From: Escherichia phage EAWsc9
Strand: one strand, 5' to 3'
Sequence record: PQ341120.1
Length of the DNA: 64,000 bases
The notes under the pieces were generated by a model. The model worked only from the letters and a program-made list of their open reading frames with translations, did no database searches and had not been told where the DNA came from. Below, in pieces: positions 27,106-41,562 of the stretch; the stretch's first letter is position 1; every line of letters starts with the position of its first letter. The translations under genes were made by a program, and so were the position numbers.

Positions 27106-27366
27106 TTACGCTTTACCGCCGGAAACAATACCAAAGGTCTCAAAGTCCCATTCAATATCATCAACATCAACTTTCTTACCAGCAACCACGAATGCGATTT
27201 CGCGACGTTTTGCATAGGTGACAATTTCTTTACCATCACCACCAAAGAAAGAATAACCATTGCGCTTCATGGTGCCAAAGTCTTCAGCATCGCCAGCAAA
27301 GGCGCGAACTTTAAAAGCACCAGTAGGAGCTTTGGCTTCTGTGATAAATTCTTGATAAGTTTTCAT
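27106..27366 (-). CDS. internal-protein-like protein with N-terminal capsid-targeting sequence
   Basis: ATG at 27366 gives 86 aa starting MKTYQEFITEAK; 5' DNA end nearly identical to those of the 40042 and 40353 genes. Confidence 0.55.
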   Translation of the reverse strand: MKTYQEFITEAKAPTGAFKVRAFAGDAEDFGTMKRNGYSFFGGDGKEIVTYAKRREIAFVVAGKKVDVDDIEWDFETFGIVSGGKA

Positions 27367-35766: not shown

Positions 35767-36234
35767 TTAAATTTCAAATTCTTTGCGGAAGTTGGAAGCA
35801 TAAGACTGAACTGATGCTTTGTTGAATCCAAACTCACGCACAATCATATCAATAACAGCTCTGCGAGCAGCACCATTAGACATATTAACAGTTTTGAACA
35901 TATCATAGCATAAATCTTTGTTGCTCATACCGGAGCGTTTAGGTGCCTTACGTTCAGCTTTTGGTTCAGCTTTTGGTTCAGCTTTTGGTTCAGCTTTAGG
36001 AGTAGGTTTAACTTCTGGTTTAACCTGTCCATCATTCAGACCTTTAAAAATTTTACCTGCCAGAGTTGCCAGTTTAGCAGCTTCGCCACGAGTGATACCA
36101 AATACTGCCGGGTTAAATGAAATACCTTCAGCTGCCAGACGTTTGAAGAACATACGTGCTGCGGATTGTGCTTCAGCTTCAGAAGAGTTGTTTAATGCCA
36201 GCTTAACGTACTTAACCAGTTTTGAAGTTTTCAT
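35767..36234 (-). CDS. hypothetical protein with (PKAE)4 tandem repeat and conserved C-terminal domain
   Basis: 155 aa; PKAEPKAEPKAEPKAE encoded by 12-nt direct repeats; C-terminal DGAARRAVID...VQSYASNFRK shared with ORF 36317..36742. Confidence 0.45.
   Translation of the reverse strand: MKTSKLVKYVKLALNNSSEAEAQSAARMFFKRLAAEGISFNPAVFGITRGEAAKLATLAGKIFKGLNDGQVKPEVKPTPKAEPKAEPKAEPKAERKAPKRSGMSNKDLCYDMFKTVNMSNGAARRAVIDMIVREFGFNKASVQSYASNFRKEFEI
35953..36000 (-). repeat. four tandem copies of a 12-nt coding repeat (plus-strand ttcagcttttgg)
   Basis: direct repeats read directly from sequence; encode P-K-A-E on the minus strand. Confidence 0.8.
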
Positions 36235-36316: not shown

Positions 36317-36742
36317 TTATTTTTGAGCTTTGCGGAAGTTGGAAGCATATGACTGAACAACAGTCTTTTTGATATCATAGGTGTTAACCAGAACATCAAT
36401 CAGGGCGCGGCGAGCTGCACCATCTGCCATATCAATTTCTGCAAATGCCTGGAAGCAAATGTCACGAGCATTACCAGATTTGGACTGGATTTTTTCTTCT
36501 TTAACTTCTTCAATTGGGAATTCAATCATTTCAGCTTGGATTAATTCAATGATAGATTCTTTTGACTGTTTGGTGTTTACCTTCAGTTCAGAATTAAGGG
36601 ACTTAGCGATGGCAACAATCTGGGTTGAAGTCAGATGAATAAGTGCATCTTCACGAATGCAGATTTCACATACTTCGTCGGCAACCATTTTGTTAGTGAT
36701 GCGGGTAACAGAGAATGCAGAAGTCAGGGTCAGGAAGTTCAT
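36317..36742 (-). CDS. hypothetical protein, paralog of 35767..36234 C-terminal domain
   Basis: ATG at 36742 behind TTTGGAGAAATAAA gives 141 aa; C-terminus DGAARRALIDVLVNTYDIKKTVVQSYASNFRK. Confidence 0.45.
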   Translation of the reverse strand: MNFLTLTSAFSVTRITNKMVADEVCEICIREDALIHLTSTQIVAIAKSLNSELKVNTKQSKESIIELIQAEMIEFPIEEVKEEKIQSKSGNARDICFQAFAEIDMADGAARRALIDVLVNTYDIKKTVVQSYASNFRKAQK

Positions 36743-36870: not shown

Positions 36871-37425
36871 TTAGTTCTTATAAAAGCGGAACGGATTTAT
36901 ATGAAAGGCGAGCATAGCCTTAGGGATTGGTCGGGACAGAAGACTCTTGAGCTTCCAGCCACAATAAACACGCAGATAAAAGGTGATTCCACCGACCTTA
37001 AGATAAGGAACAGAAGCAAAAACACCCCAGGCATTATCCGTCCACATCCAGAGCCAGCCATGGTGAGCTTTGTCTGGGGAGCCGGATTCAACATCAGGAT
37101 TACCTTTATAATGGAATTCTGAATTGCAATCACGACCAAGCTTGTGGTAAGCAAAATTGTATGCTTTATTTCGCCAGAGCCAGGCTACTCGTTGGAAGTA
37201 AACACCTAACGGCCATTTTCGGATTTTTGACCAACGTTCGACATGACCCCGGTCACCATCAATCGGATTGTCATATGTCATCATCCAATCAAATCCGAAC
37301 GGAAGTTTACCAGTCTTTTTATTATGGAATGGAACTACAAATGGAGCCAGGATAACGGCCAGAATCATGGAGATAAAATCCAGCGGAACTAACAGAATCC
37401 AACTCAAATATTTTAACAGTTTCAT
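36871..37425 (-). CDS. hypothetical membrane-anchored protein, Trp-rich
   Basis: ATG at 37425 (AAAGAG RBS) gives 184 aa; N-terminal TM helix LSWILLVPLDFISMILAVILAPFVV; flanked by terminators on both sides. Confidence 0.45.
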   Translation of the reverse strand: MKLLKYLSWILLVPLDFISMILAVILAPFVVPFHNKKTGKLPFGFDWMMTYDNPIDGDRGHVERWSKIRKWPLGVYFQRVAWLWRNKAYNFAYHKLGRDCNSEFHYKGNPDVESGSPDKAHHGWLWMWTDNAWGVFASVPYLKVGGITFYLRVYCGWKLKSLLSRPIPKAMLAFHINPFRFYKN

Positions 37426-37447
37426 ACGTTTCTCTTTAGTTGATTTA

Positions 37448-37477
37448 TAAAAAAGCCCCAACCTTTCGGAAGGGGCT
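37448..37477 (-). terminator. intrinsic terminator followed by late-promoter-like TATAAATC
   Basis: minus strand AGCCCC...GGGGCT stem then TTTTTTATAAATC (plus gatttata 37442-37449). Confidence 0.5.
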
Positions 37478-37514
37478 ATACCTTGTCGGGGTTCCACCTG
37501 CAAGGCAAGTGTTC

Positions 37515-37898
37515 TTATCCGCGAGCGAATGCCATTGCAGCGCGTTCGTTGGCACGGTCGGTGATGTTCAAGAATTTATCACGAGCAATTTCGATTGGGG
37601 CGCCGACCCAGTCAGCAGCACCATTACCCGGAGACTGTTTAGGGCGAACCATATAAGTTGAAACTTTGGAACCAGCTAGTTTGGCACCTGGCGCCGCGGC
37701 ATTTTTAACGTCTTTAGCTTTGATGCCAAACCCAGTTACGATACCCCAAGAAACGCCATTAACTGGTTTCTTGAACATAACACGGTCACCAATTGAAACA
37801 CCGGCTTTTTCTGGAGCCACTAAAGAAAATTTACCAGCTTCAGTCAGTACGGATTCGGTGATGGTATTGCGATTTAAAAATTCTGCATATGTAAGCAT
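37515..37898 (-). CDS. internal-protein-like protein with degenerate capsid-targeting sequence
   Basis: 127 aa starting MLTYAEFLNRNTITE; exact late-promoter box TATAAATA upstream. Confidence 0.5.
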   Translation of the reverse strand: MLTYAEFLNRNTITESVLTEAGKFSLVAPEKAGVSIGDRVMFKKPVNGVSWGIVTGFGIKAKDVKNAAAPGAKLAGSKVSTYMVRPKQSPGNGAADWVGAPIEIARDKFLNITDRANERAAMAFARG

Positions 37899-37920
37899 TT
37901 TGTTTTTCCATTATTAGGGT

Positions 37921-37928
37921 TGTTGTTA
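37921..37928 (-). promoter_or_regulatory. late promoter box TATAAATA
   Basis: plus tatttata = minus TATAAATA, about 25 nt upstream of ATG at 37898. Confidence 0.5.
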
Positions 37929-38131
37929 ATATTTATATTCCATAGTACCGGATGCACCATCCGCTCGGATTTCTCATACTACCGGACGCACCGTCCGCTC
38001 TGGAAAAACTCCGTTAAAAGGGTGCGCCGTTTCAGCTGTGGTAGTAAAGAACCAGAACACAGTAAAACTGTGGGAGGAACTATACTTCAGGGAACTTCAG
38101 TCCGACGACTTACCGGTAGCGACCCGGTTTC

Positions 38132-38371
38132 TCATTCAATTGTAATAGCTAATTTGACTTTAACAACCTTATAATTGGAATCAAGGTCATTGAATTCCAT
38201 AAAATTTGTTGCTAATCTGCGAGTCGGGAAACTTAGATATTTATTATGCTCAGGTGGAGCAGTTAATGCAAACCATGGGACTTGTTTATCATTTTCATCA
38301 AACTCATCAAAGCTATAAACCAGCTCGTTGTTGGTTATATCCATAACTGCATATGATTCACTAATAACCAT
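38132..38371 (-). CDS. hypothetical protein downstream of tRNA genes
   Basis: ATG at 38371 behind GAGGA gives 79 aa; the longer track ORF would overlap tRNA-Arg. Confidence 0.3.
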   Translation of the reverse strand: MVISESYAVMDITNNELVYSFDEFDENDKQVPWFALTAPPEHNKYLSFPTRRLATNFMEFNDLDSNYKVVKVKLAITIE

Positions 38372-38386
38372 AATATCCTCGGTAAT

Positions 38387-38463
38387 TGGTCGGGGTGGTG
38401 GGATTCTAACCCACAACCTACGGTTTAGAAGACCGTTGCTCTATACAATTGAGCTACACCCCG
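38387..38463 (-). tRNA. tRNA-Arg (anticodon UCU)
   Basis: hand-folded cloverleaf: acceptor CGGGGTG/CACCCCG, D stem GCTC/GAGC, anticodon stem ACGGT/ACCGT with loop CTTCTAA, T stem GTGGG/CCCAC, encoded CCA; T loop TTAGAAT and D loop without GG are atypical. Confidence 0.75.
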
Positions 38464-38539
38464 GGTGGCCCCATCCGGACTTGAACCGGAAACCTGCCAG
38501 TTATGAGCCGGATGCTCTAACCAATTGAGCTACAGGGCC
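38464..38539 (-). tRNA. tRNA with anticodon CAU (Ile-lysidine or Met type)
   Basis: hand-folded: acceptor GGCCCTG/TGGGGCC, D arm GCTC-AATTGGTTA-GAGC, anticodon loop CTCATAA, T arm TCCGG-TTCAAGT-CCGGA; one mismatch in anticodon stem; abuts tRNA-Arg. Confidence 0.7.
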
Positions 38540-38544
38540 TAAAA

Positions 38545-38814
38545 TTAAATTACAAATCCAGCGGGAGCATTATCATCTTTAGCCATGTGCTGAATTGTAT
38601 GATAAGTCATTTCTTCTGGTGCAACCAGATAAGCCGCTGCGTTAACCAACGGGATTAATTTGACTTTATTAAATGTTGGACAACCAATTGACATAAAGGT
38701 TTCGCCTGTTGGATGCTGAATTTCGCCAAATTGACACTCATACGAAATAGAGCAACGTTTGGTAGTGGTTGTCTTTGTTTTAGGGTCGTAAAAAGCTAAT
38801 TTTAATACTAACAT
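38545..38814 (-). CDS. hypothetical protein
   Basis: 89-aa minus ORF ending 6 nt before the tRNA pair. Confidence 0.35.
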   Translation of the reverse strand: MLVLKLAFYDPKTKTTTTKRCSISYECQFGEIQHPTGETFMSIGCPTFNKVKLIPLVNAAAYLVAPEEMTYHTIQHMAKDDNAPAGFVI

Positions 38815-41229: not shown

Positions 41230-41562
41230 TTATTTATAAAGTTTTGCCAGTTCTTTACGTCCGCGAGCAGACATAATAAATTGTTCATCGCCAATTTTAA
41301 AATAAGCCATACCGCCGTCAACAGCGATACCAATTTCTTTAGTACCTTCTTTGCCTTTCCACTTGCCACCAGATTTCAGGACAGCTTCAACTGCAGCTTT
41401 GGAATATTTGGACGTTTGAAAACGTTCATTACCAATCTGAAAGAAAACACCATCTGCATTTTTGGTTAAACCAAATTTCAGAGAGCCTTCACTATCATCA
41501 ATTGATTTGGTCTCATTGATGGCGGATTCGGCTAAAAACTCGTTGTAAGTTTTGATGTTCAT
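41230..41562 (-). CDS. internal-protein-like protein with capsid-targeting sequence
   Basis: 110 aa starting MNIKTYNEFLAESA. Confidence 0.5.
   Translation of the reverse strand: MNIKTYNEFLAESAINETKSIDDSEGSLKFGLTKNADGVFFQIGNERFQTSKYSKAAVEAVLKSGGKWKGKEGTKEIGIAVDGGMAYFKIGDEQFIMSARGRKELAKLYK

What the first reader, a model, noticed from the sequence alone, without database searches (positions are those of the whole stretch)
37515..37928. Isolated internal-protein-like gene with a degenerate targeting sequence and an exact late promoter
The 127-aa ORF begins MLTYAEFLNRNTITE, a variant of the MKTYQEFI targeting sequence that retains an I-T-E cleavage context. It has an exact TATAAATA box on the mRNA strand at 37921-37928 and is followed by a hairpin terminator at 37448-37477. 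Late expression fits a packaged protein. The gene lies between the tRNA region and a separate membrane-protein unit, apart from the main array.
Basis: seen in the sequence. Interest (0 to 1): 0.5.

Follow-up and report, generated by a model that had tools for sequence, protein, structure and literature searches.

The report
New packaged internal head protein gene
A small, strongly conserved gene in a T4-like (Gaprivervirus) phage carries the N-terminal tag that T4 uses to load proteins into its capsid for injection, which makes it a likely new injected, possibly anti-defence, protein sitting where related phages keep the small RNA rnaC.

Summary
The window comes from a VR20-like Gaprivervirus, a T4-type phage. 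The 127-aa ORF (37515-37898, minus strand) is a real gene: 23 of 23 nucleotide differences from VR20 are synonymous.

**N-terminus.** MLTYAEFLNRNTITE matches the T4 capsid-targeting sequence at the two residues needed for targeting (Y4, F7). It lacks E10 but keeps TITE|S. T4 IPI has the same layout (MKTFKEF...TITE|A; mature IPI* = residues 20-95, PDB 2JUB). The sequence is therefore IPI-type rather than degenerate.

**Homologues.** Only three distant homologues exist (38-41% overall identity), all from T4-like metagenome contigs. Each carries a targeting-like N-terminus, an [IL]xE site, an xATAAATA box 28-34 nt upstream of the ATG, and a terminator.

**Promoter and terminator.** The exact TATAAATA lies at 37930-37937, not 37921-37928 as reported.

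**Locus.** The cassette replaces rnaC exactly, creating a third Ip locus.

**Protein.** The mature form is about 11.7 kDa with pI about 10. Its predicted SH3-like barrel matches no Pfam, PHROG or PDB family.

**Verdict.** This is probably a new family of packaged, injected internal proteins. It is a new member of a known kind, and packaging is untested experimentally.

The parts
37515..37898 (-). ORF127, 127 aa plus stop: candidate internal head protein of a new family
   Evidence: Purifying selection: 23/23 differences synonymous vs VR20, 9/9 vs UPEC07, 9 of 10 vs pEC-M719. Found in only 15 phage records, all >=99% identical.
37869..37898 (-). Codons 1-10, MLTYAEFLNR: capsid-targeting-like segment. 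Y4 and F7 are kept, L8 replaces I8, R10 replaces E10.
   Evidence: Roles of residues 4, 7 (targeting) and 8, 10 (processing) from PMC9026906. AF2 predicts a helix over residues 4-10.
37854..37862 (-). Codons 13-15, I-T-E: predicted prohead-protease (gp21) cleavage site. Mature N-terminus would be S16.
   Evidence: gp21 motif L/I-X-E (PMC9026906). T4 IPI is cleaved after the identical TITE. Lies in the low-confidence linker, residues 13-21.
37839..37847 (-). Codons 18-20, L-T-E: alternative or second cleavage site. Mature N-terminus would be A21.
   Evidence: These are the only two [IL]xE motifs in the protein. Homologues P0003 and P0005 also have two sites.
37518..37853 (-). Predicted mature protein, residues 16-127: 11.7 kDa, pI 10.1. 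SH3-like beta-barrel (about residues 36-112) plus a C-terminal helix (115-126).
37930..37937 (-). Exact T4-type late promoter box TATAAATA. Predicted start about 37924, leader 26 nt.
   Evidence: Homologous cassettes carry AATAAATA, GATAAATA and AATAAATA 28-34 nt before their ATG. Box position -13..-6, with a variable first T, from PMC1524935.
37907..37909 (-). Weak Shine-Dalgarno GGA, 8 nt before the ATG
   Evidence: read
37938..38020 (-). 83-nt leader that belongs to the cassette. It is absent from phages that carry rnaC.
   Evidence: It is 94-100% conserved in the ORF127-bearing phages. It is partly similar to the upstream region of the L006 homologue.
37980..38000 (-). Leader repeat 1, GAGCGGACGGTGCGTCCGGTA: hairpin with a 6-bp stem and GUG loop
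   Evidence: VR20 carries a compensatory A-U to G-C change.
37946..37966 (-). Leader repeat 2, GAGCGGATGGTGCATCCGGTA: the same hairpin with a C-G to U-A compensatory difference from repeat 1
38001..38009 (-). GUUUUUCCA, a perfect complement of the SD region UGGAAAAAC (37902-37910). Possible 5' arm of a helix that hides the ribosome-binding site in read-through transcripts.
   Evidence: The helix is in the MFE fold of 38020-37860 but not when rnaD is included. This is inference only.
38021..38132 (-). rnaD (species 2 RNA) homologue retained immediately upstream. It marks the left boundary of the replacement.
   Evidence: 95.5% identity to the annotated T2L rnaD
37448..37514 (-). Two hairpins and a T run ending the unit. 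The first hairpin spans 37507-37479; the intrinsic terminator stem spans 37477-37454 with Ts to 37449. Phages carrying rnaC have the same sequence after rnaC.
   Evidence: -27.3 kcal/mol, z = -3.0. Homology to T2L, T4 and RZ resumes at 37513.

Best explanation
ORF127 most likely encodes a new family of T4-type internal head (Ip) proteins. The proposed pathway has five steps.

1. The gene is transcribed late from its own TATAAATA promoter (start about 37924) and ends at the resident terminator.
2. The N-terminal helix MLTYAEFL, with Y4 and F7, binds the precursor to the gp22 scaffolding core while the prohead assembles.
3. The prohead protease gp21 cannot cut after residue 10, which is Arg rather than Glu. 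It cuts instead after I13-T14-E15, and possibly also after L18-T19-E20. T4 IPI is cut the same way, after TITE19.
4. The basic mature protein of about 11-12 kDa, with an SH3-like fold, stays in the DNA-filled head and is injected with the genome.
5. In the cell it most likely neutralises a host defence that acts on incoming modified DNA. This is by analogy with T4 Ip1, Ip2 and Ip3, which each inhibit a different GmrSD type IV restriction enzyme.

Shown here: the gene is real and constrained; the targeting and cleavage motifs are present; they are conserved in distant homologues; the promoter and terminator are present; the locus structure is as described. Inferred: transcription timing, packaging, the cleavage site, injection and the anti-defence role. 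The stated confidence applies to steps 1-4 (a packaged, processed internal protein); the anti-defence role in step 5 is less certain, roughly 0.4.
For: Real gene: differences from VR20, UPEC07 and pEC-M719 are 23/0, 9/0 and 9/1 synonymous/non-synonymous. No upstream start codon is possible.

Targeting motif: M.T[YF].EF occurs 5 times against 0.01-0.02 expected. All 7 hits of the looser motif are N-termini of small minus-strand ORFs. Four of the five array ORFs hit 'internal head/virion protein' PHROGs, and the fifth hits a family of unknown function.

Published requirements: the first 10 residues of IPIII suffice for targeting. Residues 4 and 7 govern targeting and residues 8 and 10 govern processing. 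Asp10 blocks processing but not targeting. gp21 cuts after L/I-X-E (PMC9026906).

T4 precedent: IPI is MKTFKEFTSTTTPVSTITE|ATLTSE. It has no E10, and mature IPI* equals residues 20-95 of the precursor (PDB 2JUB).

Distant homologues: P0003, P0004 and P0005 are 38-41% identical overall (42-47% over the best-aligned stretches). They start MYTFKEFLVESELDLITEA, MKSFKEFMLSEK and MLTYNEFLEEKSGNNLTEA. They lie in T4-like contigs, two of them just after tRNA genes.

N-terminal constraint: fragment P0002 has 7 substitutions in residues 25-53 and none in residues 1-24.

Expression signals: all four cassettes have xATAAATA 28-34 nt before the ATG and a hairpin terminator after the stop.

Structure and charge: AF2 predicts helix 4-10, a disordered 13-21 linker that holds both cleavage motifs, then a compact domain. 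The mature protein has pI 10.1-10.3.

Function by analogy: Ip1-3 share only the leader and each inhibits a distinct GmrSD (PMC12373910).
Against: There is no experimental evidence of packaging. No virion proteomics for any of the 15 phages was found.

Arg at position 10 has not been tested in T4. A longer, charged spacer (NRNT) could weaken binding to the core.

The gene lies outside the two canonical Ip loci.

The Shine-Dalgarno sequence is weak (GGA).

The anti-defence role rests on analogy alone. The SH3-like fold is generic.
Confidence: 0.67

Rival explanations
1. ORF127 is a late-expressed protein that is not packaged. Its N-terminus is a relic of descent from, or recombination with, an ip gene. 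Losing E10 and gaining a charged spacer destroyed core binding or release, and the SH3-like body acts in the cytoplasm, for example by binding nucleic acid late in infection.
For: R10 replaces the Glu found in all six other targeting-sequence ORFs of the window. The gene lies outside the Ip loci. The SH3-like, KOW and Tudor folds often bind nucleic acids.
Against: T4 IPI also lacks E10 and is packaged and processed at TITE. Targeting depends on residues 4 and 7, both of which are kept (PMC9026906). The N-terminal 24 residues are invariant where the body varies. The targeting sequence plus [IL]xE is kept in homologues only 38-41% identical overall, which a relic would not predict.
Confidence: 0.17
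2. ORF127 is packaged but acts as a structural or DNA-condensing head component. It would serve as a basic counter-ion or packing protein rather than as an inhibitor of a host defence.
For: The mature protein has pI about 10 with 11 Lys. Lysines of T4 internal proteins contact DNA phosphates (PMC3012670). The fold class includes DNA- and RNA-binding domains.
Against: The gene is present in only 15 of about 745 related phage records, and close relatives such as RZ and CJ20 lack it. It is therefore accessory, like the anti-restriction Ips. All three T4 Ips turned out to be specific GmrSD inhibitors (PMC12373910).
Confidence: 0.15
3. The ORF, or its resemblance to the targeting sequence, is a chance feature of non-coding DNA downstream of rnaD.
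For: There is no Pfam or PHROG family. TATAAATA is not enriched in the window overall.
Against: The 23:0 synonymous to non-synonymous ratio. Homologues with E-values of 1e-13 to 1e-14. The motif is expected 0.01-0.02 times per window.
Confidence: 0.01

Closest known systems
T4 internal protein I (Ip1/IPI; mature form IPI*, PDB 2JUB), an injected inhibitor of GmrSD(CT596)
   Same: The propeptide layout is the same: M-x-T-[F/Y]-x-E-F, no Glu at position 10, a short spacer, then T-I-T-E followed by A or S and x-L-T. Both are small basic accessory proteins in a T-even-type phage.
   Different: The mature domains show no convincing relationship. BLASTP gives E = 1.1, hhalign gives 52.6% over the N-terminal 44 columns only, and 2JUB is not among the top structural matches. 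The spacer is 5 residues rather than 9. The locus differs. T4 ipI is preceded by an early-type promoter and no TATAAATA in the 90 nt read, whereas ORF127 has its own late box.
T4 IPII and IPIII, and the VR7/VR20-type Ip array (Ip6, Ip9 and others) in this window
   Same: They share the N-terminal targeting core (MKTYQEFI.. against MLTYAEFL..). All are small proteins in the same phage. The predicted mechanism of core targeting and gp21 processing is the same.
   Different: Those proteins have [ILF]-x-E ending at residue 10 (residue 12 in the ORF that starts MNIKTYNEFLAE). ORF127 has L-N-R there and must use E15 or E20. Four of the five array proteins hit 'internal head/virion protein' PHROGs (the fifth hits a family of unknown function); ORF127 and its homologues hit none. 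The array genes lack a well-placed late box of their own.
Late-only translation of T4 genes e, soc, 49 and I-TevI, where the ribosome-binding site is hidden in long early transcripts
   Same: A 9-bp perfect helix (38009-38001 with 37910-37902) would hide the SD region in read-through RNA. The late promoter lies inside the enclosed loop, so late transcripts lack the 5' arm. Analogous helices are predicted for the L006 and L007 cassettes (PMC3014915).
   Different: This rests on prediction only. The helix drops out of the MFE fold when rnaD is left attached, and there is no covariation to test because both arms are invariant in the available phages.
rnaC (species 1 RNA) of T-even phages
   Same: It occupies exactly the same genomic slot, between the rnaD 3' end and the conserved hairpin-plus-terminator.
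   Different: rnaC is a 139-140-nt stable non-coding RNA of unknown function. Here it is replaced by a 507-nt protein-coding cassette with no detectable sequence similarity to it.

Membership tests
T4-type internal head proteins (Ip; packaged through a capsid targeting sequence) | N-terminal targeting sequence M-x-T-[Y/F]-x-E-F with the targeting-critical residues 4 (Y/F) and 7 (F) | tested here: met
   MLTYAEF, with Y4 and F7. Residue roles from PMC9026906.
T4-type internal head proteins (Ip; packaged through a capsid targeting sequence) | gp21 cleavage motif L/I-X-E closing a 10-20-residue propeptide | tested here: met
   ITE at 13-15 and LTE at 18-20, the only such motifs in the protein. 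Both lie in a predicted disordered linker. T4 IPI is cut after TITE19.
T4-type internal head proteins (Ip; packaged through a capsid targeting sequence) | Glu at position 10 (IPII/IPIII-type processing site) | tested here: not met
   Residue 10 is Arg. This feature is not universal, because T4 IPI has Thr10.
T4-type internal head proteins (Ip; packaged through a capsid targeting sequence) | Protein available when proheads assemble (late transcription) | tested here: met
   At sequence level only. An exact TATAAATA ends 31 nt before the ATG, and the ATAAATA core is invariant in the 3 distant homologues at 28-34 nt. Actual transcripts cannot be tested here.
T4-type internal head proteins (Ip; packaged through a capsid targeting sequence) | Host phage uses targeting-sequence-dependent packaging (has other Ips) | tested here: met
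   There are six other targeting-sequence ORFs in the window. Four of the five array ORFs hit 'internal head/virion protein' PHROGs.
T4-type internal head proteins (Ip; packaged through a capsid targeting sequence) | Physical presence of the processed protein in virions and injection into the host | not testable with these tools
   No proteomics for these phages was found.
T4-type internal head proteins (Ip; packaged through a capsid targeting sequence) | Location in one of the two known Ip loci (57B-trna.4, or near e/denV). This is typical rather than defining. | tested here: not met
   The gene lies at the rnaC position, downstream of tRNA-Arg and rnaD.
IPI/Ip1 family (GmrSD inhibitor, PDB 2JUB) | Sequence or fold homology of the mature domain | tested here: not met
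SH3-like small beta-barrels (KOW, Tudor, PWWP class) | Five-stranded barrel topology, or a sequence-family match | tested here: inconclusive

The most novel reading that the evidence does not exclude
ORF127 founds a third Ip locus in T-even-type phages. On this reading it is an injected inhibitor with a fold not yet seen among Ips. It would be aimed at a GmrSD or other DNA-sensing defence variant that none of Ip1-10 covers. It was captured as a self-contained late cassette that displaced the conserved but enigmatic rnaC. Its translation would be confined to late transcripts by a long-range helix that hides its ribosome-binding site.
Probability: 0.3. Interest if true: 0.6.

Novelty: new member of a known kind. 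Interest (0 to 1): 0.42.

Why it matters
All three T4 internal proteins are now known to be specific inhibitors of different GmrSD type IV restriction enzymes (PMC12373910). Five further active GmrSD groups have no known inhibitor. New targeting-sequence-bearing families are therefore the obvious place to look.

This gene is annotated only as 'hypothetical protein' in all 15 records. It is absent from Pfam and PHROGs, and it lies outside the two loci where ip genes are normally sought.

It also shows that the IPI-type long propeptide (no E10, cleavage at TITE) recurs in an unrelated protein family. That helps define the real sequence requirements of capsid targeting, which is used to engineer T4 as a protein-delivery vehicle.

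Finally, the 15 phages lack rnaC at its usual site. They could therefore serve as natural material for asking what that RNA does, once its absence from the rest of their genomes is confirmed.

Tried and rejected
**No informative match**
- Pfam and PHROG scans of ORF127 and its homologues gave no hits.
- A PDB sequence search with the family profile gave nothing below E = 0.26.
- An Rfam search of 37300-38700 found only the two tRNAs and sub-threshold noise.
- Scans of IMG/VR and metagenome contigs with the family profile returned only identical copies.

**Poor or non-specific results**
- Single-sequence AlphaFold was useless (pLDDT 36). The run was repeated with the 6-sequence alignment.
- BFVD returned only the protein itself, from VR20.
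- A 15-mer from the leader scanned against IMG/VR gave more than 120 non-specific hits in unrelated contigs and was dropped.

**Ideas tested and not supported**
- Recent foreign origin was suggested by the raised GC (0.47 against 0.40). It is not supported, because GC3 (0.37) is typical of the neighbours. The excess reflects Ala/Gly/Pro content.
- Recent recombination with the local ip genes' targeting-sequence DNA is not supported, because codon choices differ throughout.
- Homology of the mature domain to IPI* is not supported.
- Depletion of internal [IL]xE sites as a signature of packaging is not consistent across the family. P0003 and P0004 have an internal LKE.

**Unavailable sources**
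- No Gaprivervirus virion proteomics was found.
- Repoila et al. 1994 and the two IPI papers are not held in the library.

Full report
**What the window is.** The region 36800-38500 matches T4-type coliphages of the genus Gaprivervirus at 90-98% identity (ECML-359, pEC-M719-6WT.2, UPEC07, VR20). On the minus strand, using the VR20 annotation, the gene order is:
- gp2, gp3, gp1, 57A, 57B;
- a five-gene internal-protein array;
- Trna.4, Trna.3 and two ORFs;
- tRNA-Met and tRNA-Arg;
- a 79-aa ORF;
- the 127-aa ORF;
- a 184-aa ORF with a hydrophobic N-terminus.

**Checking the observation.** The ORF is exactly as described: 37515..37898 on the minus strand, 127 aa, starting MLTYAEFLNRNTITE. An in-frame TAA four codons upstream rules out an earlier start.

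The exact TATAAATA exists on the coding strand, but at 37930-37937 rather than 37921-37928. With the box at -13..-6 (PMC1524935), the predicted late start is about 37924. The box ends 31 nt before the ATG.

The terminator is real. The stem spans 37477-37454 and is followed by a T run. Together with an upstream hairpin it folds at -27.3 kcal/mol, z = -3.0. The consensus scanner missed it because of an internal loop.

TATAAATA is not over-represented in the window (7 observed, 5.7 expected). The N-terminal motif is. M.T[YF].EF occurs 5 times against 0.01-0.02 in shuffles. A looser form occurs 7 times in six frames, every time at the N-terminus of a small minus-strand ORF.

**It is a real, constrained gene.** Against VR20 the ORF has 23 nucleotide differences, all synonymous. 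Against UPEC07 it has 9, all synonymous. Against pEC-M719 it has 9 synonymous and 1 conservative change.

The protein is found in only 15 phage records, all at least 99% identical, and in one cluster among 5.8 billion proteins. An exhaustive HMMER search of 1.84 billion representatives found one fragment and two distant homologues. A profile search added a third. Pfam, PHROGs and PDB sequences give nothing.

**The N-terminus is IPI-type, not degenerate.** Published work on T4 IPIII (PMC9026906) establishes four points:
- The first 10 residues suffice for capsid targeting.
- Residues 4 and 7 carry the targeting information.
- Residues 8 and 10 govern processing, and Asp10 blocks cleavage without blocking targeting.
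- gp21 cuts after L/I-X-E.

ORF127 keeps Y4 and F7, has L8, and has Arg at position 10. The other six targeting-sequence ORFs of the window all close their leader with [ILF]-x-E, ending at residue 10 (residue 12 in the one that starts MNIKTYNEFLAE).

I translated the T4 genes themselves. IPII and IPIII begin MKTYQEFIAE. IPI begins MKTFKEFTSTTTPVSTITE-ATLTSEV. The solved mature IPI* (PDB 2JUB, 76 residues) corresponds to residues 20-95 of the precursor. T4's own IPI therefore lacks E10 and is cut after T-I-T-E.

ORF127 reads MLTYAEF-LNRN-TITE-SVLTEA, which is the same architecture with a shorter spacer. The protein has only two [IL]xE motifs, ITE at 13-15 and LTE at 18-20. Both fall in the one segment that AlphaFold leaves disordered (residues 13-21), between an N-terminal helix (4-10) and the folded body.

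**Distant homologues tell the same story.** P0003, P0005 and P0004 are 38-41% identical to ORF127 overall (42-47% over the best-aligned stretches). Their N-termini are:
- P0003 (202 aa): MYTFKEFLVESELDLITEA...
- P0005 (134 aa): MLTYNEFLEEKSGNNLTEA...
- P0004 (125 aa): MKSFKEFMLSEK...

The targeting core and an [IL]xE site, often two, are retained while the bodies have diverged strongly. P0003 has also gained an extra insert of about 80 residues.

Their contigs carry T4-family Pfam domains. In two of them the gene again sits just downstream of tRNA genes. Each gene is preceded by xATAAATA 28-34 nt before the ATG and followed by a hairpin terminator. PMC1524935 reports that the first T of the late box is poorly conserved among T4-like phages.

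Fragment P0002 has 7 substitutions in residues 25-53 and none in residues 1-24.

**Locus structure.** Gapriverviruses that lack the gene (RZ, CJ20), as well as T2L and T4, carry rnaD then rnaC at this site.

In the window, rnaD is retained (38132-38021, 95.5% identical to T2L). Homology resumes at 37513, at the first base after the annotated 3' end of rnaC. The 507 nt in between (38020-37514) consist of an 83-nt leader, the late promoter and ORF127 through its stop codon. They replace the 6-nt spacer plus rnaC.

The terminator is therefore the resident one. rnaC is otherwise very conserved: 740 records carry it and 681 of them are at least 95% identical. It is not found anywhere in the window. 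Silas et al. describe two Ip loci in T-even phages, so this would be a third.

Foldseek against the PDB finds nothing better than E = 0.06. Against viral models it finds only the VR20 protein itself. IPI* does not appear in either list. hhalign of the family against IPI aligns only the leader and about 30 following residues, at 52.6% probability.

The mature protein would be 11.1-11.7 kDa with pI 10.1-10.3, like other small basic Ips. GC is raised (0.47), but GC3 is ordinary (0.37).

**Mechanism and function.** I conclude that ORF127 is a late-made precursor. It is most likely carried into the prohead core by its targeting sequence, trimmed by gp21 at E15 or E20, and injected with the DNA.

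Its target is unknown. Ip1, Ip2 and Ip3 share only the leader, and each blocks one GmrSD variant (PMC12373910). The most likely role is therefore inhibition of a host defence acting on incoming modified DNA. Packaging, cleavage, injection and target are inferences.

**A secondary, weaker inference.** The leader contains GUUUUUCCA (38009-38001), a perfect complement of the SD region UGGAAAAAC (37910-37902). The MFE fold of 38020-37860 uses this helix. It encloses two tandem hairpin repeats and the late promoter, so only late transcripts would expose the ribosome-binding site. T4 genes e, soc, 49 and I-TevI work this way (PMC3014915).

The helix is lost from the MFE fold if rnaD stays attached. 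Analogous helices are predicted for two of the three homologous cassettes.

**Verdict.** The finding is a new family within a known kind, the targeting-sequence-bearing internal proteins. It sits at a new locus that displaced rnaC. Interest is moderate.

Noticed in passing
window 37514-38020 (minus strand), compared with L010 (T2L) 1806-1951, L011 (T4) and L009 (RZ): rnaC (species 1 RNA) is conserved at >=95% identity in about 680 T-even records but is missing from the window. Its slot, to the base, is occupied by the ORF127 cassette, while rnaD and the hairpin and terminator that follow rnaC are kept. These phages may be natural rnaC-null variants.
   Followed up: partly
window 37980-38000 and 37946-37966 (minus strand): There are two direct 21-nt repeats, GAGCGGAYGGTGCRTCCGGTA, 34 nt apart. 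Each forms a 6-bp hairpin with a GUG loop. The copies differ by a compensatory C-G to U-A change, and VR20 has a compensatory A-U to G-C change in copy 1. There is no Rfam match, and the motif occurs nowhere else in the window. Its function is unknown.
   Followed up: partly
window 38001-38009 with 37902-37910 (minus strand); L006 about 2902-2970; L007 about 557-617: A 9-bp perfect complement to the SD region lies upstream of the late promoter. It could block translation from read-through early or middle transcripts, as in T4 e, soc and 49. The fold depends on context, and no covariation is available to test it.
   Followed up: partly
window 27106-27366 (minus strand): A sixth canonical targeting-sequence ORF (MKTYQEFITEAKAPT..., 86 aa from the ATG at 27366) lies directly downstream of denV, which itself follows lysozyme e. 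This is the second Ip locus of this phage.
   Followed up: no
window 35767-36234 and 36317-36742 (minus strand): Two adjacent ORFs are paralogues, 42% identical over the C-terminal 86 residues (...GAARRA[VL]ID..VQSYASNFRK). The first carries a short tandem KAEP repeat. Function unknown.
   Followed up: partly
window 37442-37449 (minus strand): TATAAATC, one mismatch from the late box, overlaps the end of the terminator T run. It ends 16 nt before the ATG (37425) of the 184-aa ORF with a hydrophobic N-terminus (PHROG 2143, unknown function; labelled 'holin' in some records without visible support).
   Followed up: no
window 41231-41238 (minus strand): The only other TATAAATA near the Ip array is formed by the last codons (..L-Y-K-stop) of the first array gene. 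It ends 9 nt before the next ATG, which is too close to serve that gene. The array genes seem to lack late promoters of their own.
   Followed up: no
window 38021-38132 compared with L002 (UPEC07) and L003 (VR20): rnaD exists in two sequence variants among ORF127-bearing phages. The window and pEC-M719 carry the T2L type. UPEC07 and VR20 differ through its central part (about 77% identity over the whole rnaD), although the flanks are near-identical. This suggests mosaic recombination inside the small RNA gene.
   Followed up: no
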